DNA of 64,000 nucleotides from Escherichia coli. Lineage in GTDB: Bacteria > Pseudomonadota > Gammaproteobacteria > Enterobacterales > Enterobacteriaceae. Positions within the stretch are counted from its first letter, which is position 1; each line of letters starts with the position of its first letter. Below, piece after piece: positions 51,271 through 62,396 of the stretch. The notes beneath the pieces are model-generated. The model was not told the origin of the DNA. It saw only the letters and a list, made by a program, of their open reading frames with translations, and did no database searches. A program made the position numbers and the translations under genes. Location of the stretch: assembly GCF_050320075.1 (NCBI RefSeq), contig NZ_CP190018.1. One strand, given 5' to 3'.

Positions 51271-52071
51271 TTAACGTAACGAGCGACTTTCCATCGCCTC
51301 GATGAGCACCGCATCGTGTTTCAGCGTTTGCCATGCATGGATGACTTCTGCCGGAAAATCAACGTGAACGATAAAATCTCGCCCGCGGGGACCGTAGCCA
51401 TCGCTATCATCGCGTAAACGCGGCAGCTCGCCAGTGAGTAGTGAGAGATAACGCTCAACCGGCCATAATCCTTGCAACGGATTAACAAAGATTACACTGT
51501 CTGCGTTGTTTCCTAGCTGAGGAACGAATCCGGGATAACTTAACCAGCGAGGTGCATCTGGATTGTCCCCGGTCATACGGCGGAACGTCGCCATCGTGCG
51601 CCGCTGCATGGTGGGGTCCTGAACAACGATAGCCGTATGAACTCGTTCTACGGCCTGATTCAATAGCGCGATGCTAAAGCGTGCGTTTTCACCGCAGTTT
51701 GTTGACTGGTCTTCAATCCAGATTTTTTCATGCGGAATATGCCAGAACTGATGAGCGATATCCGCCAGGATGGTGGCTTCTGCTCTGCCAGTGGTGCGGA
51801 TAGTGTTGTAGTGCGGATGCTGTGCGATAGCGCTATACAAAAAAGTTGTCGAGTGACCGATACCACCACTAATCAGTAGAGGAATTTGCTGATCGCGGGC
51901 AATCTTACATGCCGCATCGATAGTCGGCATAACCGCATTGCCTGCAAGGATCACGCAATCGGCCTGATACGGCATCTCACCGGAGAAATCATCCTGCGCC
52001 AGCCACTGTCCGATAACATTTATGGCATCTATAGTTGCCGTCGAAAGCGTCGGAAACGGGGTAATGTTCAT
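51271..52071 (-). CDS. ydcF: DUF218-domain protein YdcF
   Basis: 266 aa. Confidence 0.8.
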
Positions 52072-52186
52072 GGTTCCTCCTTATCGTTCCCTTAAGAATA
52101 CTGCGTGAGATAATAATGAGAAGCGGAGCACTCTGAAAGGAAGATGATGCTTTTTCTACCTCGCCATCGCGAACCAGACACTGGTT

Positions 52187-52564
52187 TTAGTCATACTGTA
52201 TTTGCGGAGAAACTGTTGATAAAACATCAATAACATCATTTGACGTGGCAATGACATAATGCTCGATCACATTATTTTTATAAATTTCACAACTTTGCAT
52301 AGTAAACCATGCAAAGTAGGCGGAATTCACTACTCTATAGATCCCCGTTTGGTTAATACCGTGAATTCCTGACATTCCTAACAAATCACCTTCGTCAGTA
52401 ACACGAAATGAATGTATCCAGTCAAATGATAACTTAACTTCTGACTTGATCGCCGGACATATGAGGGTAAGTTCAAGCCTGGCATTTTTATAGCTTAAAT
52501 CTGATAGTTCGGCATTTTTAAAAGACAATGAAGTCGGAGTGATATTTATAAAACATTCATCCAT
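52187..52564 (-). CDS. hypothetical small protein (125 aa), AT-rich islet gene C
   Basis: Uninterrupted ORF co-directional with the two genes upstream; no recognisable family. Confidence 0.5.
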   Translation of the reverse strand: MDECFINITPTSLSFKNAELSDLSYKNARLELTLICPAIKSEVKLSFDWIHSFRVTDEGDLLGMSGIHGINQTGIYRVVNSAYFAWFTMQSCEIYKNNVIEHYVIATSNDVIDVLSTVSPQIQYD

Positions 52565-52683
52565 GTTAATACCCCTTCATATATGAGACTGCTCTCGATA
52601 GACGACACATTAACCTTCTGCAAAAACGGTGCGAGTCTGTTTACGTACCATGTATAATCGATGGACATTACTGTGATTTGAAA

Positions 52684-53142
52684 TTACCTTGTCCAGTCAT
52701 CAACCATTTTTTTCAGGGGGAACATCTGCAATACATTCATTAATGCGAAATATAATTCCCCCTGTGGCACCCATATTCTAATCTTCTCATCCCCTAAAAT
52801 GAAAAATTGCAATTGACGTTTGAAACCTAATGTTTTATCTTCAGGTAATTCAGCTTGTATTTTTTTATTGATATCATCAAGGTAGATGTGATGACAATAC
52901 TCATCAAACATACTCATTACTTCCAGACCGTTTACAGATGTCCATCTTTGTTCACTTTCCCAATAAACAAGAACCGGTTTGCGGCAGGTATATCTGCCTA
53001 AAAAGCGCTGAATGTGTTCTTCCTGATTCTCGTAAAATATTGCCTCTGCATTCGAGATTTGCCGACGCATTCGCCAGCGGATTTTTTCTTCATAAAAAGA
53101 CAATTTGTCGCATTTGGTATTACTCAAATTCATTGTCAACAA
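52684..53142 (-). CDS. hypothetical small protein (about 150 aa), AT-rich islet gene B; start uncertain
   Basis: Uninterrupted ORF; overlaps the end of islet gene A. Confidence 0.5.
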   Translation of the reverse strand: MLTMNLSNTKCDKLSFYEEKIRWRMRRQISNAEAIFYENQEEHIQRFLGRYTCRKPVLVYWESEQRWTSVNGLEVMSMFDEYCHHIYLDDINKKIQAELPEDKTLGFKRQLQFFILGDEKIRIWVPQGELYFALMNVLQMFPLKKMVDDWTR

Positions 53143-53512
53143 CTCGCATGGTTTTAAATATAAAATTTAAAAAACCGCCAAACAAATGAAGTGAAATTTC
53201 ATACTTCTTTGCCTTATAAACAATTACCGCATCTTTAATATTACCTGCATTTTGGTTATCTATAAGTTCAGCAATATCCATAACCTGCGATAAATGTTCC
53301 ACTCCCGTAAACTCGAACCTTTTTCGTTCCCTTCCGGCTGTAAATTCATCAACATAAAGTTCTGCCGTCAATATAAAATTATACTCGGTGTGGTGACATT
53401 CCATTCTGGTTTCTACTAAAACACCATCATGCCAGATAATATTGTCTAAATTTTTCATACTATTAATCCAATCCATTACTTTCTGATAAAATTTCCTCTG
53501 GAAGTTTTTCAT
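53120..53512 (-). CDS. hypothetical small protein (130 aa), AT-rich islet gene A
   Basis: Uninterrupted ORF; first gene of the three-gene islet. Confidence 0.5.
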   Translation of the reverse strand: MKNFQRKFYQKVMDWINSMKNLDNIIWHDGVLVETRMECHHTEYNFILTAELYVDEFTAGRERKRFEFTGVEHLSQVMDIAELIDNQNAGNIKDAVIVYKAKKYEISLHLFGGFLNFIFKTMRVVDNEFE

Positions 53513-53685
53513 AGAAAGAGATTAAAGCCTGACCGACGCAATCAAGCTCTATTATTCGCTCATAATACGATCTCATTAAAATATCATGCTTACTCATTGC
53601 AATACGTCCTGTTTACCATGGGCAGAGTATGAATGTAACTTATGTAAAATAGTACCGCCCTTGCTATTTTTCAGAATTCATAAAG

Positions 53686-54755
53686 GCTGAATTTACAATC
53701 CAAGTGCAACAAAAAAAGAAGTACTCATCAACTAGAATATAATTTTGTTTCCACACAAAAACCATTTCCAAATGATGAGTACTTCCTACCGACATCTTAC
53801 AATAAACGAGCGAGAAAAGATAATGATTTTACTCGCACAGGGCAAAAAACAAGCAGAAATTGCCAAAGCACTGGGACGTAGCTCCAGCACCATTTCTCGC
53901 GAGCTGAAACGACACGCTCTAGAAAGCTACAGTGCAACGAACGCACAAAACAGCTATTTGAAGCATCGTCAAAATAGCAAAGCACAGCGCAAATTAGAGC
54001 AGCCTGAATATTTCAATTTGGTGCAAGAAAAGTTTCTGACAGAAAACTGGTCGCCCGAACAAATCAGCGCACGATTAAAATTGGAAAAATCTGAATTATC
54101 CATTAGTTATTCAACCATTTATCGTGGTATTTATTCAGGGTTGTTTGATATAGGCGAACGCAAAGCCAGTCGCAAACTGCGCCACAAAGGCAAAACACGG
54201 CATACAAAAAATCATCATGAAAAACGTGGCAAAATTCAGATATCCAACCATTTGAACGACCGTCCCATTTCGGCGCAAAATCGCAGTCGCTTTGGACATT
54301 GGGAAGCCGATACCGTACTGGGTAAAGCGGGTGGAGCTTGTTTGCTGACGCTGACGGAACGCAAAAGTCGTTTTGAGTTGGTGAAGAAAATTCCTGCCAA
54401 AAAAGCCGAAGCAGTCCAAAAAGCCATGATTGAATTGCTGGATTCACATATATTGCGGTCAATTACGCCAGACCGTGGTAAAGAATTTGCCCAACATCGT
54501 TTGGTAACAGAAGCACTGGGTGTAGAATTTTACTTCCCCGAGCCGCATCAACCGTGGACACGGGGAACGAATGAAAATACAAATGGGTTACTTCGTGAAT
54601 ACTTTCCGAAGCACCAAGACATCAATCAGTGGAGCGAAGTTGATATTCAACAGGTGATCAATAAACTGAATTTACGACCACGTAAATGTTTAGGTTGGAA
54701 AACACCTTATGAAGTTTACTTCAAAAAATCGTTGCACTTGGTTTGACAATTCAAG
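53686..54755 (+). mobile_element. ISApl1 (IS30 family), upstream copy, transposase intact
   Basis: 1070 bp; imperfect terminal inverted repeats TGAATTTACAATCCAAGTGCAAC / TGAATTGTCAAACCAAGTGCAAC (reverse complement). Confidence 0.85.
53823..54746 (+). CDS. tnpA: ISApl1 transposase (IS30 family, DDE); 307 aa from MILLAQGKKQ, alternative upstream starts at 53772/53775 possible
   Basis: HTH region LGRSSSTISRELKR; C-terminal DDE integrase core. Confidence 0.8.
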   Translation: MILLAQGKKQAEIAKALGRSSSTISRELKRHALESYSATNAQNSYLKHRQNSKAQRKLEQPEYFNLVQEKFLTENWSPEQISARLKLEKSELSISYSTIYRGIYSGLFDIGERKASRKLRHKGKTRHTKNHHEKRGKIQISNHLNDRPISAQNRSRFGHWEADTVLGKAGGACLLTLTERKSRFELVKKIPAKKAEAVQKAMIELLDSHILRSITPDRGKEFAQHRLVTEALGVEFYFPEPHQPWTRGTNENTNGLLREYFPKHQDINQWSEVDIQQVINKLNLRPRKCLGWKTPYEVYFKKSLHLV

Positions 54756-54941
54756 ATACAAATTATAAATACTCTCAAGTGTATATTCAGTATGGGATTG
54801 CGCAATGATTGCCTAATAAAATTTCTGAAATATTTCTGTATCGCATAATTTTTTATATCAGATAAATTGTACTGGATTTCTTAAAAAATTGCAGTATAAT
54901 TGCCGCAATTATCCCACCGTTTATTTTTTGAGTAGTTTCTC

Positions 54942-56567
54942 ATGATGCAGCATACTTCTGTGTGGTACCGACGCTCGGTCAGTCCGTTTGTTCTTGTGGC
55001 GAGTGTTGCCGTTTTCTTGACCGCGACCGCCAATCTTACCTTTTTTGATAAAATCAGCCAAACCTATCCCATCGCGGACAATCTCGGCTTTGTGCTGACG
55101 ATCGCTGTCGTGCTCTTTGGCGCGATGCTACTGATCACCACGCTGTTATCATCGTATCGCTATGTGCTAAAGCCTGTGTTGATTTTGCTATTAATCATGG
55201 GCGCGGTGACCAGTTATTTTACTGACACTTATGGCACGGTCTATGATACGACCATGCTCCAAAATGCCCTACAGACCGACCAAGCCGAGACCAAGGATCT
55301 ATTAAACGCAGCGTTTATCATGCGTATCATTGGTTTGGGTGTGCTACCAAGTTTGCTTGTGGCTTTTGTTAAGGTGGATTATCCGACTTGGGGCAAGGGT
55401 TTGATGCGCCGATTGGGCTTGATCGTGGCAAGTCTTGCGCTGATTTTACTGCCTGTGGTGGCGTTCAGCAGTCATTATGCCAGTTTCTTTCGCGTGCATA
55501 AGCCGCTGCGTAGCTATGTCAATCCGATCATGCCAATCTACTCGGTGGGTAAGCTTGCCAGTATTGAGTATAAAAAAGCCAGTGCGCCAAAAGATACCAT
55601 TTATCACGCCAAAGACGCGGTACAAGCAACCAAGCCTGATATGCGTAAGCCACGCCTAGTGGTGTTCGTCGTCGGTGAGACGGCACGCGCCGATCATGTC
55701 AGCTTCAATGGCTATGAGCGCGATACTTTCCCACAGCTTGCCAAGATCGATGGCGTGACCAATTTTAGCAATGTCACATCGTGCGGCACATCGACGGCGT
55801 ATTCTGTGCCGTGTATGTTCAGCTATCTGGGCGCGGATGAGTATGATGTCGATACCGCCAAATACCAAGAAAATGTGCTGGATACGCTGGATCGCTTGGG
55901 CGTAAGTATCTTGTGGCGTGATAATAATTCGGACTCAAAAGGCGTGATGGATAAGCTGCCAAAAGCGCAATTTGCCGATTATAAATCCGCGACCAACAAC
56001 GCCATCTGCAACACCAATCCTTATAACGAATGCCGCGATGTCGGTATGCTCGTTGGCTTAGATGACTTTGTCGCTGCCAATAACGGCAAAGATATGCTGA
56101 TCATGCTGCACCAAATGGGCAATCACGGGCCTGCGTATTTTAAGCGATATGATGAAAAGTTTGCCAAATTCACGCCAGTGTGTGAAGGTAATGAGCTTGC
56201 CAAGTGCGAACATCAGTCCTTGATCAATGCTTATGACAATGCCTTGCTTGCCACCGATGATTTCATCGCTCAAAGTATCCAGTGGCTGCAGACGCACAGC
56301 AATGCCTATGATGTCTCAATGCTGTATGTCAGCGATCATGGCGAAAGTCTGGGTGAGAACGGTGTCTATCTACATGGTATGCCAAATGCCTTTGCACCAA
56401 AAGAACAGCGCAGTGTGCCTGCATTTTTCTGGACGGATAAGCAAACTGGCATCACGCCAATGGCAACCGATACCGTCCTGACCCATGACGCGATCACGCC
56501 GACATTATTAAAGCTGTTTGATGTCACCGCGGACAAAGTCAAAGACCGCACCGCATTCATCCGCTGA
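54942..56567 (+). CDS. mcr-1: phosphoethanolamine--lipid A transferase MCR-1 (mobile colistin resistance)
   Basis: 541 aa; MMQHTSVWYRRSVSPFVLVAS N-terminus, five-helix membrane domain, sulfatase-like catalytic domain with the nucleophile Thr in the CGTSTAYS motif. Confidence 0.95.
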   Translation: MMQHTSVWYRRSVSPFVLVASVAVFLTATANLTFFDKISQTYPIADNLGFVLTIAVVLFGAMLLITTLLSSYRYVLKPVLILLLIMGAVTSYFTDTYGTVYDTTMLQNALQTDQAETKDLLNAAFIMRIIGLGVLPSLLVAFVKVDYPTWGKGLMRRLGLIVASLALILLPVVAFSSHYASFFRVHKPLRSYVNPIMPIYSVGKLASIEYKKASAPKDTIYHAKDAVQATKPDMRKPRLVVFVVGETARADHVSFNGYERDTFPQLAKIDGVTNFSNVTSCGTSTAYSVPCMFSYLGADEYDVDTAKYQENVLDTLDRLGVSILWRDNNSDSKGVMDKLPKAQFADYKSATNNAICNTNPYNECRDVGMLVGLDDFVAANNGKDMLIMLHQMGNHGPAYFKRYDEKFAKFTPVCEGNELAKCEHQSLINAYDNALLATDDFIAQSIQWLQTHSNAYDVSMLYVSDHGESLGENGVYLHGMPNAFAPKEQRSVPAFFWTDKQTGITPMATDTVLTHDAITPTLLKLFDVTADKVKDRTAFIR

Positions 56568-56614
56568 TTTCTCCCTGTATTTTTTCCAAACCCACCGCAC
56601 ACTCCATTCGTATT

Positions 56615-57361
56615 ATGGGCGGTGGGGTGGGGTTTGTTATGCCGTATTTATCAAATAAACGCCTACTTGCTGAGATGAGTATCGCTCTTGTCATGGCGAT
56701 CGTTGCCACGCTGACCCTTGAGCACAGTCAGATTGATCTGATGGTCGCTGATTGGTTTTATCTGGGTATGGGGCATTGGATGGTTGCCAAGCAAGCTTTT
56801 TTGCCAGATTTGCTACTGTATTCTGGACTAAAAAAGCTGCTGATGGCGATGCTGATCTACTTGCTGGTTGCGACCATTTGCCGTGCTTATCATGAGAAAA
56901 AGGGCAATGCTATCACTGCCAAGTGGCTTGTCCCAGTGACAAAATTTCGCGTGCGTGAGCTTGCGTATCTGGTGCTGACTTTGATCCTAGTGCCGACAGT
57001 TGTCGCGTCATTGAAGGCATATACTCATGTGGTCTGCCCTGTGCATTTGACGATTTTTGATGGTACGCTGCCGTATTTGCCGATGCTTGATAGTATGCGT
57101 AACACCATTCCTGATAAGTGCTTTCCTGCGGCGCATGCCAGTAGCGGATTTGCGCTGTTTGCCTTTGCGTTTGCGCCAAGTTTGCGCCGCCGTCGTGGTG
57201 CGATCATCATCGTGGTGATGGCATTGGGCTGGGCGATGGGCTGCTATAAGATGATTATTGGCGATCATTTTTTGAGCCATACGGTGGTGTCGATGATGCT
57301 TGCGTGGGCGATGTCGGCAGGGCTTGCGTGGGTGTTTTTTAAGAAGGGTGAACAAGTTTAA
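56615..57361 (+). CDS. pap2: PAP2-family membrane phosphatase (start may be 56639)
   Basis: 248-aa hydrophobic protein directly downstream of mcr-1, as in the mcr-1 cassette. Confidence 0.8.
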   Translation: MGGGVGFVMPYLSNKRLLAEMSIALVMAIVATLTLEHSQIDLMVADWFYLGMGHWMVAKQAFLPDLLLYSGLKKLLMAMLIYLLVATICRAYHEKKGNAITAKWLVPVTKFRVRELAYLVLTLILVPTVVASLKAYTHVVCPVHLTIFDGTLPYLPMLDSMRNTIPDKCFPAAHASSGFALFAFAFAPSLRRRRGAIIIVVMALGWAMGCYKMIIGDHFLSHTVVSMMLAWAMSAGLAWVFFKKGEQV

Positions 57362-57364
57362 TCG

Positions 57365-58434
57365 GCTGAATTTACAATCCAAGTGCAACAAAAAAAGAAG
57401 TACTCATCAACTAGAATATAATTTTGTTTCCACACAAAAACCACTTCCAAATGATGAGTACTTCCTACCGACATCTTACAATAAACGAGCGAGAAAAGAT
57501 AATGATTTTACTCGCACAGGGCAAAAAATAAGCAGAAATTGCCAAAGCACTGGGACGTAGCTCCAGCACCATTTCTCGCGAGCTGAAACGACACGCTCTA
57601 GAAAGCTACAGTGCAACGAACGCACAAAACAGCTATTTGAAGCATCGTCAAAATAGCAAAGCACAGCGCAAATTAGAGCAGCCTGAATATTTCAATTTGG
57701 TGCAAGAAAAGTTTCTGACAGAAAACTGGTCGCCCGAACAAATCAGCGCACGATTAAAATTGGAAAAATCTGAATTATCCATTAGTTATTCAACCATTTA
57801 TCGTGGTATTTATTCAGGGTTGTTTGATATAGGCGAACGCAAAGCCAGTCGCAAACTGCGCCACAAAGGCAAAACACGGCATACAAAAAATCATCATGAA
57901 AAACGTGGCAAAATTCAGATATCCAACCATTTGAACGACCGTCCCATTTCGGCGCAAAATCGCAGTCGCTTTGGACATTGGGAAGCCGATACCGTACTGG
58001 GTAAAGCGGGTGGAGCTTGTTTGCTGACGCTGACGGAACGCAAAAGTCGTTTTGAGTTGGTGAAGAAAATTCCTGCCAAAAAAGCCGAAGCAGTCCAAAA
58101 AGCCATGATTGAATTGCTGGATTCACATATATTGCGGTCAATTACGCCAGACCGTGGTAAAGAATTTGCCCAACATCGTTTGGTAACAGAAGCACTGGGT
58201 GTAGAATTTTACTTCCCCGAGCCGCATCAACCGTGGACACGGGGAACGAATGAAAATACAAATGGGTTACTTCGTGAATACTTTCCGAAGCACCAAGACA
58301 TCAATCAGTGGAGCGAAGTTGATATTCAACAGGTGATCAATAAACTGAATTTACGACCACGTAAATGTTTAGGTTGGAAAACACCTTATGAAGTTTACTT
58401 CAAAAAATCGTTGCACTTGGTTTGACAATTCAAG
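57365..58434 (+). mobile_element. ISApl1, downstream copy, transposase inactivated
   Basis: Co-linear with the upstream copy at a fixed offset of 3679 bp; at least two substitutions seen, including the nonsense change. Confidence 0.85.
57502..58425 (+). pseudogene. tnpA: ISApl1 transposase pseudogene, codon 10 CAA->TAA (57529..57531)
   Basis: GGCAAAAAATAAGCAGAAATT here versus GGCAAAAAACAAGCAGAAATT in the upstream copy; remainder of the frame matches copy 1. Confidence 0.8.
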
Positions 58435-58436
58435 AG

Positions 58437-58470
58437 AAAAAACCCGGCGCTAAATGCTTACCGGGTTTTA
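58437..58470 (-). terminator. rho-independent terminator of hrpA
   Basis: Hairpin CCCGG...CCGGG with flanking A and T tracts just downstream of the hrpA stop. Confidence 0.55.
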
Positions 58471-58493
58471 GATTTATCAGGCAAATAGCAGTG

Positions 58494-61400
58494 TTAACCG
58501 CTAATCTGCTCCATCGCCTGCAAAATACGCTTATCTGAAATCGGATAAGGCGTACCAAGTTGTTGAGCGAAGTAACTAACGCGCAACTCTTCTATCATCC
58601 AACGGATCTCTTTCACGTCTTCATCCTCACGACGTGCGGGCGGCAGTTTGTTGATCCATTGCTGCCACGCCTGCTGGACATTTTCGACTTTCAGCATCTG
58701 AGCACGGTCGCGATGTGGGTCAACCGCCAGTTTTTCCAGCCGTTTTTCAATCGCCTGCAAATAACGCAGCGTGTCGCCCAACCGTTTGAAGCCGTTACTA
58801 GTGACAAAACCGCGATATACCAACCCGCCCATCTGCGCTTTAATGTCAGAAAGCCCCAGCGCCATGGTCATATCCACCCGCCCTTTCAGACGTTTATTGA
58901 TATTGAACACCGCAGTAAGGATTTGCTCGACCTGCTTCGCAATATCCACCACCGTGTCGTTCAGTTCAGCGCGGACTTTTTCATGCAGCGCAGCAAAACC
59001 TTCTTCCGTCCAGACCGGGCCACCATTGGCGTCGATCAGTTGATCCACACCGCAGGAGATACAGTCGTCGATCAGCTCCAGCACTTTGCCATACGGGTTA
59101 AAGTACAGCCCCAGCTTGGCTTTGTTTGGCAACTTCTCATGCAAATATTTGATTGGCGAGGGAATATTCAGCAGCAGTAGACGGCGAAGACCGTTCCACA
59201 TTGCCTGCTTTTGTTCCAGCGGATTATCAAACAGTTTGATCGCCACGCTGTCGCGTTCATCCACTAGCGCTGGCCACGCCTTCACTTTATAGTTGCCACG
59301 CTTCTGTTCGTAGCTTTCCGGCAGCTGACCAAAACTCCAGATATGTAAGCCGCTCTGCTCGATACCGTCATCCGCCACCGCAGACAGCGTTTCCTGCACT
59401 TTGCCTTTCAGCGCATCTTTCAGATCTTGTAGAGAGCGCCCTTCTTTTAGCTTCTTGTTTTTGTCATCCACCACACGGAAGGTGATTTTCAGGTGATCGG
59501 GCACCTGATCCCAGTGCCAGTCTTCGCGGTCAACGGTGACGCCAGTCATCCGCCGTAGCTCTCGTTCAAGGCTGTCGAGCAACGGCAATTCCAGCGGTGT
59601 GACGCGGCCTAAAAAAGCTTCGGCGTAGTTTGGCGCGGGCACAAAATTACGCCGTACCGGTTTCGGCAACGATTTAATCAGAGCAATCACCAGTTCGCGG
59701 CGCAGACCGGGGATCTGCCACTCAAATCCGCTCTCCTCCACCTGGTTAAGTAACGGCAGCGGGATATGTACCGTCACGCCGTCCGCATCCGCCCCTGGCT
59801 CAAACTGATAACTCAAACGCAGCTTGAGATTGCCCTGATGCCAGAAGTTCGGGTAATCCAGCTTGCTGATCTTTTCCGCCCCTTCTTTGATCAACATGCT
59901 CTTTTCAAAGTTGAGCAAATCAGGCGTTTCGCGGCTGACTTTTTTCCACCAGCTGTCGAAGTGACGTGCGGAGATCACATCGTGGCTGATGCGCTGGTCG
60001 TAAAACTCAAACAGCGTTTCGTCATCCACCAGAATATCGCGGCGACGTGTTTTGTGTTCCAGTTCTTCCACTTCGGCCCGTAGTTTCAGGTTTTCACGGA
60101 AGAATGCGTGACGCGTCTGCCAGTCACCTTCCACCAGCGCGTGGCGAATAAAGAGTTCACGACATAACGCCGGATCGATCTGGCTGTAGTTGACCTTGCG
60201 CGCGGCAACAATCGGCAAGCCATAAACAGTGACTTTTTCCGTTGCCATCACCGCGCCCTGCGCCCGTTCCCAGTGCGGTTCGCTGTAGGTGCGTTTAATC
60301 AAATGCTGAGCAACTGGCTCCACCCATTCTGGATCGATGCGTGCCGCAATGCGCCCCCACAGGCGGCTGGTTTCTACCAGTTCCGCCACCATTACCCATT
60401 TCGGCGGCTTTTTAAATAAGCCGGAACCGGGGAAAATGGAGAAACGCGCGTTACGTGCGCCGGTATATTCTTGTTTATCGGCATCTTTCATGCCGATATG
60501 GGAAAGCAAACCGGTCAGTAAGGCGATGTGAATTTCGCGATACTCCGCCGGTTCGCTGTTAACCGGAATGCCAAGTTCTTTTACCACCTGGCGCAACTGG
60601 GTGTAGATATCCTGCCATTCGCGCACGCGCAGATAGTTGAGATAATCGGTACGACACAGGCGACGGAAAGCGTTGGAAGAAAGCGCCTTTTGCTGCTCGC
60701 CAAGATAATTCCACAGATTTACAAACGCGAGGAAGTCGGATTCTTTGTCGTGGAAGCGACGATGTTTTTCGTCCGATGCCTGCTGTTTGTCCATCGGTCG
60801 TTCGCGCGGATCCTGGATGGAGAGCGCGGACGTGATAATCATCGCCTCACGCACGCAGCCATGTTTTTGCGCTTCCAGCACCATACGCGCCAGACGAGGA
60901 TCGACAGGCAATTGCGAAAGCTGGCGACCGAGCGGCGTCAGTTTATAGGCGCTGGCCTGTTCATCAGTGGTGATCGCGCCCAGCTCTTCGAGCAGACGCA
61001 CGCCATCCTGGATATTACGTTTATCCGGTGCTTCGACAAATGGGAACGCGGCGATATCGCCCAACCCCAGCGCGGTCATCTGTAAAATAACCGAGGCCAG
61101 GTTGGTACGCAGAATCTCCGGATCGGTAAACTCCGGGCGCGAGAGGAAATCGTCTTCGGAATAGAGACGAATACAGATCCCTTCGGACACACGACCACAG
61201 CGGCCTTTACGCTGGTTGGCAGACGCCTGCGAAATGGGCTCAATCGGCAAACGCTGCACTTTGGTGCGATAGCTGTAGCGGCTGATACGCGCCGTACCTG
61301 GGTCGATAACGTATTTAATCCCCGGTACGGTCAGCGACGTTTCCGCGACGTTGGTCGCCAGCACAATGCGCCGTCCACTGTGCGACTGGAACACGCGGTT

Positions 61401-62396
61401 CTGTTCGCTGTTCGAAAGCCGCGCATAAAGCGGCAAGATTTCGGTATGGCGTAAGTTCAGCTTGTTCAGCGCATCGGCGGTATCGCGAATTTCCCGCTCA
61501 CCGCTCATAAAGATCAGAATGTCGCCGGGACTTTCCTGGCTCAGTTCGTCTACGGCGTCAAAAATCGCCTGCAACTGATCGCGCTCGGTGTCATCGGCTT
61601 CTTCAACAATCGGGCGATAGCGCACTTCCACCGGATAGGTCCGACCGGAGACTTCGATAATCGGCGCATTATTAAAGTGGCGCGAAAAGCGTTCCGGGTC
61701 GATAGTCGCGGAAGTGATAATGATTTTTAGGTCAGGACGCCGCGGTAGCAACTCTTTCAAATAGCCGAGCAGAAAATCGATATTCAGGCTGCGTTCGTGC
61801 GCTTCGTCAATAATGATAGTGTCGTACTGCATCAGCAGGCGGTCTTGCTGGATCTCCGCCAGCAGGATACCGTCGGTCATCAGCTTGACCATCGTGTTAT
61901 CACTTACGTGATCGCTGAAACGCACTTTGTAACCGATGCAACCGCCCGGCTCCGTTTTCAGCTCTTCCGCAATACGGTTCGCCACCGTTCGTGCCGCCAG
62001 GCGACGCGGCTGGGTATGGCCGATCAGCCCTTTAATCCCGCGCCCCAGTTCCATACAGATTTTCGGTAGCTGAGTCGTCTTACCGGAACCGGTTTCCCCG
62101 GCGACGATCACCACCTGGTGATCACGAATCGCTTCGAGAATGTCCTTCTTTTTCTGACTAACTGGCAAATTGTCGGGATAAGTGATTTCCGGTCGTGCCG
62201 CTTCACGCAGCAGGACTTTCCCTGCCGCCTGGTCAATCTCTTTCGCCATCTCCTGGAAAATGGCCTGTTGTGCATCAGGATTTTTAACCTTCTTCACACC
62301 GTGCAGACGGCGTAAAAAACGCTGTCTGTCGCGCAGCATCAGCGAATCCAGCCGCTGCTGCAAGGCAGTAAAGGTCAATTTTTGTTGTTCTGTCAT
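58494..62396 (-). CDS. hrpA: ATP-dependent RNA helicase HrpA (DEAH-box)
   Basis: 1300 aa; Walker A GETGSGKTTQ, DEAH motif (IIIDEAHERS), helicase C-terminal and HA2 regions. Confidence 0.9.
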   Translation of the reverse strand: MTEQQKLTFTALQQRLDSLMLRDRQRFLRRLHGVKKVKNPDAQQAIFQEMAKEIDQAAGKVLLREAARPEITYPDNLPVSQKKKDILEAIRDHQVVIVAGETGSGKTTQLPKICMELGRGIKGLIGHTQPRRLAARTVANRIAEELKTEPGGCIGYKVRFSDHVSDNTMVKLMTDGILLAEIQQDRLLMQYDTIIIDEAHERSLNIDFLLGYLKELLPRRPDLKIIITSATIDPERFSRHFNNAPIIEVSGRTYPVEVRYRPIVEEADDTERDQLQAIFDAVDELSQESPGDILIFMSGEREIRDTADALNKLNLRHTEILPLYARLSNSEQNRVFQSHSGRRIVLATNVAETSLTVPGIKYVIDPGTARISRYSYRTKVQRLPIEPISQASANQRKGRCGRVSEGICIRLYSEDDFLSRPEFTDPEILRTNLASVILQMTALGLGDIAAFPFVEAPDKRNIQDGVRLLEELGAITTDEQASAYKLTPLGRQLSQLPVDPRLARMVLEAQKHGCVREAMIITSALSIQDPRERPMDKQQASDEKHRRFHDKESDFLAFVNLWNYLGEQQKALSSNAFRRLCRTDYLNYLRVREWQDIYTQLRQVVKELGIPVNSEPAEYREIHIALLTGLLSHIGMKDADKQEYTGARNARFSIFPGSGLFKKPPKWVMVAELVETSRLWGRIAARIDPEWVEPVAQHLIKRTYSEPHWERAQGAVMATEKVTVYGLPIVAARKVNYSQIDPALCRELFIRHALVEGDWQTRHAFFRENLKLRAEVEELEHKTRRRDILVDDETLFEFYDQRISHDVISARHFDSWWKKVSRETPDLLNFEKSMLIKEGAEKISKLDYPNFWHQGNLKLRLSYQFEPGADADGVTVHIPLPLLNQVEESGFEWQIPGLRRELVIALIKSLPKPVRRNFVPAPNYAEAFLGRVTPLELPLLDSLERELRRMTGVTVDREDWHWDQVPDHLKITFRVVDDKNKKLKEGRSLQDLKDALKGKVQETLSAVADDGIEQSGLHIWSFGQLPESYEQKRGNYKVKAWPALVDERDSVAIKLFDNPLEQKQAMWNGLRRLLLLNIPSPIKYLHEKLPNKAKLGLYFNPYGKVLELIDDCISCGVDQLIDANGGPVWTEEGFAALHEKVRAELNDTVVDIAKQVEQILTAVFNINKRLKGRVDMTMALGLSDIKAQMGGLVYRGFVTSNGFKRLGDTLRYLQAIEKRLEKLAVDPHRDRAQMLKVENVQQAWQQWINKLPPARREDEDVKEIRWMIEELRVSYFAQQLGTPYPISDKRILQAMEQISG

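What the first reader, a model, noticed from the sequence alone, without database searches (positions are those of the whole stretch)
58435..58470. Tn6330 inserted 2 bp from the hrpA terminator hairpin
The right-hand AG duplication is immediately followed by the A-tract and stem of the hrpA rho-independent terminator. The insertion spared the hairpin but replaced the sequence beyond it, and ISApl1 read-out could now run antisense into hrpA.
Basis: inference. Interest (0 to 1): 0.3.

Follow-up and report, generated by a model that had tools for sequence, protein, structure and literature searches.

The report
Tn6330 inserted beside hrpA terminator
A standard copy of the colistin-resistance transposon Tn6330 (ISApl1-mcr-1-pap2-ISApl1) has jumped cleanly into the A/T-rich stretch just past the transcription terminator of the E. 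coli hrpA gene, leaving gene and terminator intact; this is an ordinary insertion at a typical ISApl1 target.

Summary
Tn6330 occupies window 53686..58434 (4,749 bp). It has two 1,070-bp ISApl1 copies, the 2,609-bp mcr-1/pap2 cassette with its AT and CG inner dinucleotides, and a 2-bp AG duplication at 53684-85 and 58435-36. The right-hand AG is followed directly by six A's and a GC-cored hairpin (58439..58469). On the minus strand this lies 25 nt after the hrpA stop codon and is followed by UUUUUUCU.

The hairpin and A-tract are present in 5,414 of 5,426 complete E. coli genomes. An orthologous hairpin with a U-tract follows hrpA in other Escherichia species and in some Citrobacter and Superficieibacter.

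- Nothing was "replaced". Joining the two flanks with one AG gives a sequence 100% identical over 1,000 bp to many E. coli chromosomes, so this is a simple insertion.
- The hrpA terminator keeps its hairpin and the first 8 nt after the stem.
- No outward promoter forms at the right junction. Weak read-through from mcr-1 or the transposase gene cannot be excluded, because the antisense face of the hairpin scores below a classical terminator threshold in this lineage.

The position follows from ISApl1's target preference (T-rich left, A-run right), shown by 21 comparison sites. Interest is low.

The parts
53684..53685 (.). Left copy of the 2-bp target-site duplication (AG)
   Evidence: Sequence. 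The empty site contains a single AG.
53686..54755 (+). Upstream ISApl1 (1,070 bp). Transposase CDS 53772..54746. The left inverted repeat starts GCTGAATTTACAATCC.
   Evidence: IS30-family transposase at 3.4e-92. RefSeq annotation of identical copies.
54756..57364 (+). 2,609-bp mcr-1/pap2 cassette with inner AT (54756-57) and CG (57363-64) dinucleotides. mcr-1 is 54942..56567; the pap2 ORF is 56615..57361.
   Evidence: MCR-1 family 1302.7 bits against a cut-off of 1100, and PAP2_near_MCR1 547 bits. AT/CG fingerprints as described in PMC5821093.
57365..58434 (+). Downstream ISApl1 (1,070 bp). Transposase CDS 57451..58425. Its stop codon lies inside the right inverted repeat.
58422..58427 (+). 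Outward-facing TTGACA (-35-like) in the right inverted repeat. It forms the IS-circle junction promoter with TACAAT of the left repeat at 17-bp spacing, but has no -10 partner in this flank.
   Evidence: Sequence. No promoter-like site at this junction. The junction-promoter concept is in PMC5821093.
58435..58436 (.). Right copy of the target-site duplication (AG)
58437..58442 (-). A6 tract on the plus strand, which is the U6 tract of the hrpA terminator on the minus strand. It also forms the A-rich right half of the ISApl1 target.
58439..58469 (-). Terminator hairpin (GC core 58443-47 paired with 58461-65, with an inner 2-bp stem and a 5-nt loop)
   Evidence: Fold at -15.6 kcal/mol, z = -4.0. 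Present in 5,414 of 5,426 E. coli genomes. Orthologous hairpins in other species.
58466..58477 (+). Plus-strand tail TTTTAGATTTAT, an interrupted U-tract that makes the hairpin a weak terminator for transcripts leaving ISApl1
   Evidence: d = -12 here, +17 in K-12, which has TTTTTTCTTTAT
58494..62396 (-). hrpA (ATP-dependent RNA helicase, 1,300 aa), intact
   Evidence: NCBIfam HrpA equivalog at 2623 bits.
52187..53683 (-). Ancestral sequence beyond the terminator, now displaced by 4,751 bp: a small islet of three uncharacterised ORFs (52187..52564, 52684..53142, 53120..53512) between ydcF and hrpA
   Evidence: No Pfam or NCBIfam match.

Best explanation
This is an ordinary transposition of the composite transposon Tn6330 into the chromosome of an E. 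coli lineage that carries a small islet between ydcF and hrpA.

**Mechanism.** The ISApl1 transposase cut the target around an AG dinucleotide and duplicated it. The site was used because it fits the ISApl1 (IS30-family) target profile: AT-rich DNA with a T-rich left half and an A-run at +3..+6 on the side of the right inverted repeat. Here that A-run is the A6/U6 tract of the hrpA intrinsic terminator.

**Consequences.** The insertion point is 8 nt past the GC stem on the hrpA strand. Because the AG is duplicated, the hairpin and the first 8 nt after it (UUUUUUCU) are unchanged. hrpA termination should therefore be essentially unaffected, and the event is expected to be near-neutral for hrpA. 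The terminator should also shield the downstream ISApl1 from hrpA transcription.

**Shown versus inferred.**
- Shown: element identity, boundaries, duplication, exact empty site, hairpin conservation and the target profile.
- Inferred: terminator function, since no transcript 3' ends were available, and the absence of any expression effect.
For: **Element identity and boundaries.**
- All components were identified by family models.
- The inner AT/CG fingerprints match the published Tn6330 description (PMC5821093).

**Clean insertion.**
- The empty site is 100% identical over 1,000 bp in many chromosomes, and about 586 genomes carry at least 80% of it.
- It is annotated in strain CFSAN061763.

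**Hairpin as terminator.**
- The hairpin folds well on both strands.
- It is present in 5,414 of 5,426 E. coli genomes and is identical in K-12.
- Orthologous hairpins with a U-tract follow hrpA in E. albertii, E. whittamii, cryptic Escherichia, two Citrobacter and two Superficieibacter. They include one compensatory A-U to G-C change and a variable loop.
- The terminator discriminant for the hrpA strand is +21.0 in the empty site and +15.7 with Tn6330.

**Target preference.**
- In 21 other ISApl1/Tn6330 sites flanked by duplications, AT content is 95-100% at -3, +3, +4 and +5, with A in 16-18 of 21 at +3..+6. The window has AAAA there.
- Published data agree: 2-bp duplications, AT-rich targets, T upstream and A downstream (PMC6349718, PMC9927407).
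Against: - The simple terminator scan did not report this hairpin. Its apical region of 11-13 nt exceeds the scan's loop limit of 3-8 nt.
- No experimental 3'-end record for hrpA was found in two Term-seq supplements.
- The left half of the target fits the ISApl1 profile only partly: C at -5 and A at -4 are minority bases.
- An expression effect on hrpA or on the islet genes cannot be excluded without RNA data.
Confidence: 0.85

Rival explanations
1. One reading: transcription leaving the right end of ISApl1 now runs antisense into the 3' end of hrpA and affects its expression.
For: - mcr-1, pap2 and the downstream transposase gene all read towards hrpA, and no terminator-like site was found between 57300 and the junction.
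- The plus-strand face of the hairpin has an interrupted U-tract (UUUUAGAUUUAU) and scores d = -12, so it may leak.
- The transposase stop codon lies only 13 nt before the hairpin.
Against: - No outward promoter forms at the junction. The TTGACA in the right repeat has no -10 partner (sequence).
- IS30-family transposase promoters are weak except in the circular junction form (PMC5821093).
- A stable hairpin (-15.2 kcal/mol) followed by four U's still stands in the way.
- Untranslated antisense RNA in E. coli is usually cut short by Rho. This is established knowledge and was not tested here.
- No transcript data exist.
Confidence: 0.12
2. The junction arose by deletion or recombination that replaced the DNA next to the terminator, not by simple insertion.
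For: The AT-rich left flank looks unlike the K-12 hrpA-ydcF spacer, which could suggest replacement.
Against: - Matching AG duplications flank the element.
- The flanks, joined with one AG, match many natural chromosomes at 100% over 1,000 bp.
- The left flank is a pre-existing islet with ydcF and aldA beyond it.
Confidence: 0.01
3. ISApl1 specifically recognises terminator hairpins, by structure or by a paused or bent DNA state, rather than merely an A-run. Terminator-adjacent insertion would then be a targeting rule.
For: - Two of 21 independent comparison sites show the same geometry of right repeat, duplication, A-run and GC hairpin. These are L003 at the yfgI terminator and L099 at a tRNA-Met operon terminator.
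- Two more are doubtful cases.
- Against random positions (1.6%), P = 0.046 on the strict count and 0.0003 on the loose count.
Against: - Against the proper background, A5+ runs in the same window of which 5.9% abut such a hairpin, the strict count is not enriched (P = 0.35) and the loose count only marginally so (P = 0.03).
- Seventeen of the 21 sites have no hairpin at all.
- The sample is small and the hairpin criterion is my own.
Confidence: 0.08

Closest known systems
Tn6330 (ISApl1-mcr-1-pap2-ISApl1) chromosomal insertions in E. coli
   Same: Same length (4,749 bp) and about 99.9% identity to other copies. It has the AT/CG inner dinucleotides, a 2-bp duplication and an AT-rich target.
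   Different: This insertion site, downstream of hrpA, was not found in any of 5,426 complete RefSeq E. coli genomes. It is absent from the 2017 Tn6330 site table of PMC5821093 and from any searchable paper.
Tn6330 at the yfgI terminator in strain 2018-11-1BCC (NZ_AP027902.1; locus L003)
   Same: Identical local geometry: right inverted repeat, AG duplication, A-run, then a GC hairpin flanked by T's.
   Different: There the transposon sits between the co-directional gene (yfgI) and its terminator hairpin, so it separates gene from terminator. Here hrpA converges on the IS end and keeps its terminator.
Canonical intrinsic (Rho-independent) terminators, including two-faced A-tract/hairpin/U-tract terminators
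   Same: GC-cored hairpin, U6 tract, 25 nt after a stop codon, with an A-tract on the 5' side.
   Different: - The apical part is longer than typical: a 2-nt interior loop, a 2-bp inner stem and a 5-nt loop.
- In this lineage the antisense U-tract is interrupted, so it is probably effective in one direction only, unlike the K-12 allele.
IS30-family junction and hybrid promoters (-35 in the right end, -10 in the left end)
   Same: ISApl1 has TTGACA 7 bp from its right end and TACAAT in its left repeat. These would be spaced 17 bp apart in a circle junction with a 2-bp spacer (sequence).
   Different: At this right junction no -10 is available, so no hybrid outward promoter is formed.

Membership tests
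Tn6330 composite transposon | Two directly repeated, complete 1,070-bp ISApl1 copies | tested here: met
   53686..54755 and 57365..58434, with 2 differences between them. Both repeat ends were found exactly twice.
Tn6330 composite transposon | 2,609-bp mcr-1/pap2 segment with conserved AT (upstream) and CG (downstream) inner dinucleotides | tested here: met
   54756..57364 is 2,609 bp, begins with AT and ends with CG. The criterion comes from PMC5821093.
Tn6330 composite transposon | Encodes MCR-1 and the associated PAP2 protein | tested here: met
   NF000465 at 1302.7 bits (cut-off 1100) and NF028536 at 547.4 bits (cut-off 475).
Tn6330 composite transposon | 2-bp target-site duplication confirmed against an empty site | tested here: met
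   AG on both sides. The empty site carries a single AG and is 100% identical over 1,000 bp.
Intrinsic (Rho-independent) terminator of hrpA | Stable GC-rich stem-loop immediately followed by a U-tract on the gene's strand | tested here: met
   -15.6 kcal/mol, z = -4.0, followed by UUUUUUCU. Discriminant +15.7 to +21. The simple scan missed it because of its loop-size limit.
Intrinsic (Rho-independent) terminator of hrpA | Located just downstream of the stop codon and conserved at the orthologous position | tested here: met
   - It begins 25 nt after the TAA stop codon.
- It is present in 5,414 of 5,426 E. coli genomes.
- Orthologous hairpins occur in 10 other lineages, with one compensatory change.
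- It is not conserved in most other enterobacterial genera, which carry REP-like or different hairpins.
Intrinsic (Rho-independent) terminator of hrpA | Mapped transcript 3' end in the U-tract | not testable with these tools
   Two Term-seq supplements contain no hrpA entry in the held text.
Bidirectional terminator | Adequate U-tract on both faces of the hairpin | tested here: not met
   The plus-strand tail UUUUAGAUUUAU gives T-score 3.5 and d = -12. The K-12 allele would pass at d = +17.
IS-created outward (hybrid) promoter | -35 in the IS end plus a -10-like hexamer in the flank at 16-18 bp | tested here: not met
   TTGACA lies at 58422-27. The flank hexamers CCGGCG, CGGCGC and GGCGCT do not resemble a -10, and no promoter-like site was reported.
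ISApl1/IS30-family target site | AT-rich target, T-rich on the left-repeat side and A-rich on the right-repeat side, with a less AT-rich duplicated dinucleotide | tested here: met
   - The window has A at +1..+6, where comparators show A in 16-18 of 21 at +3..+6.
- It has T at -7, -6 and -3.
- The left half fits imperfectly at -5 and -4.

The most novel reading that the evidence does not exclude
ISApl1, and perhaps IS30-family elements generally, are funnelled to the far side of intrinsic terminators more often than A-run preference alone predicts. Terminator flanks would then act as safe harbours that protect both host genes and the IS from read-in transcription.
Probability: 0.08. Interest if true: 0.35.

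Novelty: new member of a known kind. Interest (0 to 1): 0.1.

Why it matters
There is little here beyond bookkeeping.

- It documents one more chromosomal landing site of the mcr-1 transposon. The copy is intact and still bounded by both ISApl1 copies, so it is presumably still mobile.
- The insertion is cleanly reversible in principle and probably harmless to the neighbouring hrpA gene.
- The analysis corrects the idea that flanking DNA was replaced.
- It shows that the position next to the terminator follows from the known A/T-run target preference of ISApl1 and needs no special mechanism.

Tried and rejected
- **Simple promoter and terminator scan.** It found no terminator at the hairpin, which is explained by the scan's loop limit. 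It also found no outward promoter at the right junction.
- **Literature.** No paper links ISApl1, mcr-1 and hrpA. The Tn6330 site table in PMC5821093 lists no chromosomal AG site.
- **Term-seq supplements of PMC7815308 and PMC12207403.** Neither holds an hrpA or b1413 entry in the held text, so there is no experimental 3' end.
- **Rfam scan of 52000..59500.** Nothing matched at the hairpin. The only hits were sub-threshold ones to the long imperfect inverted repeat in the ISApl1 leader.
- **Pfam and NCBIfam on the three islet ORFs.** No family matched.
- **My first idea that the spared hairpin is a good two-way terminator blocking IS read-out.** I weakened this after one search showed the plus-strand face scoring below threshold in this lineage.
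- **Hairpin-specific targeting by ISApl1.** I tested it on 21 comparison sites against random and A-run-matched backgrounds. It is not supported beyond the A-run preference.
- **Replacement or deletion of the flank.** Rejected.

Full report
**What is at the coordinates**

The window around the finding reads ...GGTTTGACAATTCAAG|AG|AAAAAACCCGGCGCTAAATGCTTACCGGGTTTTAGATTTATCAGGCAAATAGCAGTGTTAACCG....

- Repeat analysis and exact-pattern searches give two directly repeated ISApl1 copies, at 53686..54755 and 57365..58434. Each is 1,070 bp, and they differ at two positions.
- Between them lies a 2,609-bp segment that begins with AT and ends with CG. These are the ancestral fingerprints described for Tn6330 (PMC5821093).
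- Family models identify an IS30-family transposase, MCR-1 (1302.7 bits against a cut-off of 1100), the MCR-1-associated PAP2 protein, and a full-length HrpA helicase on the minus strand at 58494..62396.
- The element is 4,749 bp and about 99.9% identical to Tn6330 copies in other E. coli chromosomes and plasmids.
- AG flanks it on both sides, at 53684-85 and 58435-36.

**Is it a clean insertion?**

I removed 53686..58436 and joined the flanks. The resulting 1,000-bp sequence is 100% identical to many E. coli chromosomes, and about 586 of 5,418 genomes carry at least 80% of it.

In strain CFSAN061763 the annotated gene order is aldA, ydcF, three hypothetical genes plus a gene fragment, then hrpA. 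The sequence at the site reads ...TTCATAAAGAAAAAACCCGG..., with a single AG.

So nothing was deleted or replaced. The AT-rich DNA to the left of Tn6330 is a pre-existing ~1.4-kb islet that K-12 lacks. No genome in the 5,426-genome collection has this same insertion.

**The hairpin**

- On the hrpA strand the RNA would read ...UAA, 24 nt, then AAAACCCGGUAAGCAUUUAGCGCCGGGUUUU-UU-CU, then the IS end.
- It folds at -15.6 kcal/mol (z = -4.0). The complementary strand folds at -15.2 kcal/mol (z = -3.5).
- The A-tract and hairpin are present in 5,414 of 5,426 E. coli genomes, and the hairpin is identical in K-12.
- A scan of one genome per species returned 80 enterobacterial hrpA loci.
- An orthologous hairpin with a U-tract follows hrpA in Escherichia sp. 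E1V33, a divergent E. coli, E. albertii, Escherichia sp. MOD1, E. whittamii, two Citrobacter and two Superficieibacter. Their energies range from -13.5 to -21 kcal/mol. The loop and inner stem vary, and one Citrobacter shows a compensatory A-U to G-C change.
- Most other genera instead carry REP-like or unrelated hairpins after hrpA.
- No Rfam family matches the hairpin.
- The simple terminator scan missed it because its loop limit is 3-8 nt.
- No mapped 3' end for hrpA was found in two Term-seq supplements.

I therefore accept "hrpA intrinsic terminator" as well supported by sequence and comparison, but it has not been shown experimentally.

**Effect on the terminator**

The insertion point is 8 nt past the GC stem. 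Because the AG (CU on the hrpA strand) is duplicated, the hairpin and the first 8 nt after it are unchanged. Only the bases beyond differ: CUUGAAUU where the empty site has UUAUGAAU.

A d'Aubenton-Carafa-type discriminant, computed with modern energy parameters and so meaningful only as a relative measure, gives these values:

| Strand and context | d score |
|---|---|
| hrpA strand, empty site | +21.0 |
| hrpA strand, with Tn6330 | +15.7 |
| hrpA strand, K-12 | +18.2 |
| Opposite (plus) strand, this lineage | -12 |
| Opposite (plus) strand, K-12 | +17 |

I expect no meaningful change in hrpA termination. This is an inference.

**Read-out from ISApl1**

- mcr-1, pap2 and the downstream transposase gene (57451..58425) all point towards hrpA, and no terminator-like site lies between them and the junction.
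- The right inverted repeat carries a perfect TTGACA at 58422-27 that faces outward. Together with TACAAT in the left repeat it would form a 17-bp-spaced promoter in the circular or dimer junction. This fits the published statement that joining the IS ends creates a strong promoter.
- In this flank the positions 16-18 bp downstream read CCGGCG, CGGCGC and GGCGCT. No hybrid promoter exists, and the scan reports none.
- Any read-out is therefore read-through. It meets the hairpin followed by UUUUAGAUUUAU, which scores below threshold in this lineage (d = -12; K-12, with UUUUUUCUUUAU, scores +17).
- Some antisense RNA entering the hrpA 3' end is thus possible, but it is likely to be weak. It cannot be assessed without transcript data.

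**Why this site?**

I collected 21 other chromosomal ISApl1 or Tn6330 insertions that have 2-bp duplications.

- Their aligned targets are T-rich at -7..-3 and A-rich at +3..+6 on the right-repeat side. AT content is 95-100% at -3, +3, +4 and +5, and the duplicated dinucleotide itself is less AT-rich.
- This matches published profiles (PMC6349718; PMC9927407).
- The window has A at +1..+6, which is the terminator's A6 tract, and T at -7, -6 and -3. It fits imperfectly at -5 and -4.

Two comparators show the same "right repeat, duplication, A-run, GC hairpin" geometry: L003, next to the yfgI terminator and also with an AG duplication, and L099, next to a tRNA-Met operon terminator.

- Such hairpins abut 1.6% of random positions but 5.9% of A5+ runs in the window.
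- Against the A-run background the strict count (2 of 21) is not enriched (P = 0.35). A looser count (4 of 21) is only marginally enriched (P = 0.03).
- The terminator adjacency is therefore explained by the known A-run preference and does not require recognition of the hairpin.

**Verdict**

The terminator was indeed spared. "Replaced the sequence beyond it" is wrong. Antisense read-out is untested and probably minor.
- This is a canonical Tn6330 at a previously unlisted chromosomal site, behaving as ISApl1 is known to behave.
- Novelty: a new member of a known kind. Interest: low.

Noticed in passing
window 52187..53685 (also L001 5002..6500): A ~1.4-kb AT-rich islet of three uncharacterised minus-strand ORFs (125, 152 and 130 aa) lies between ydcF and the hrpA terminator. 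They have no Pfam or NCBIfam match. About 586 of 5,418 E. coli genomes carry the islet, and K-12 lacks it.
   Followed up: partly
window 53663..53685 joined to 58437..58442; alignment A1 columns 42-65: About 20 nt just beyond the terminator (TTTATGAATTCTGAAAAA on the hrpA strand) is conserved from Escherichia to Citrobacter. After it the sequences diverge completely between lineages, as if variable islets begin at that point. Tn6330 splits this block. Its function is unknown.
   Followed up: no
window 53670..53699 and 57349..57378: At both ISApl1 left ends the flanking DNA supplies a -35-like hexamer 18 bp upstream of the TACAAT in the left repeat (TTCAGA from the chromosome, TGAACA from the pap2 end). 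The insertion creates the chromosomal one, which is absent from the empty site. These are pattern matches only, at 9 of 12 positions and at about the chance rate.
   Followed up: partly
window 53718..53785 and 57397..57464: A long imperfect inverted repeat (31-nt arms, 74% complementary) in the ISApl1 leader spans the transposase start codon (ATG at 53772 and 57451). It gives sub-threshold Rfam hits. It could sequester the start codon in transcripts reading in from outside, as described for other IS elements.
   Followed up: no
L003 412..5159 (NZ_AP027902.1, strain 2018-11-1BCC): An independent Tn6330 copy, also with an AG duplication, sits between the yfgI stop codon and its terminator hairpin (AAAAAACCCTCTGTAGTAACAGAGGGTTTT). 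There the gene is separated from its terminator.
   Followed up: partly
L002 5100..5160 (K-12 hrpA-ydcF spacer, strand opposite to hrpA): The K-12-specific spacer contains AGGAGG, 6 nt, then ATG and a 9-codon ORF (MSLTATPQA) on the strand opposite to hrpA. It is absent from the window's lineage. I saw it only by eye.
   Followed up: no
E. coli genome collection: ISApl1 occurs in 233 of 5,426 complete E. coli genomes, at 923 places of which 630 are chromosomal. One genome has up to 41 copies.
   Followed up: no
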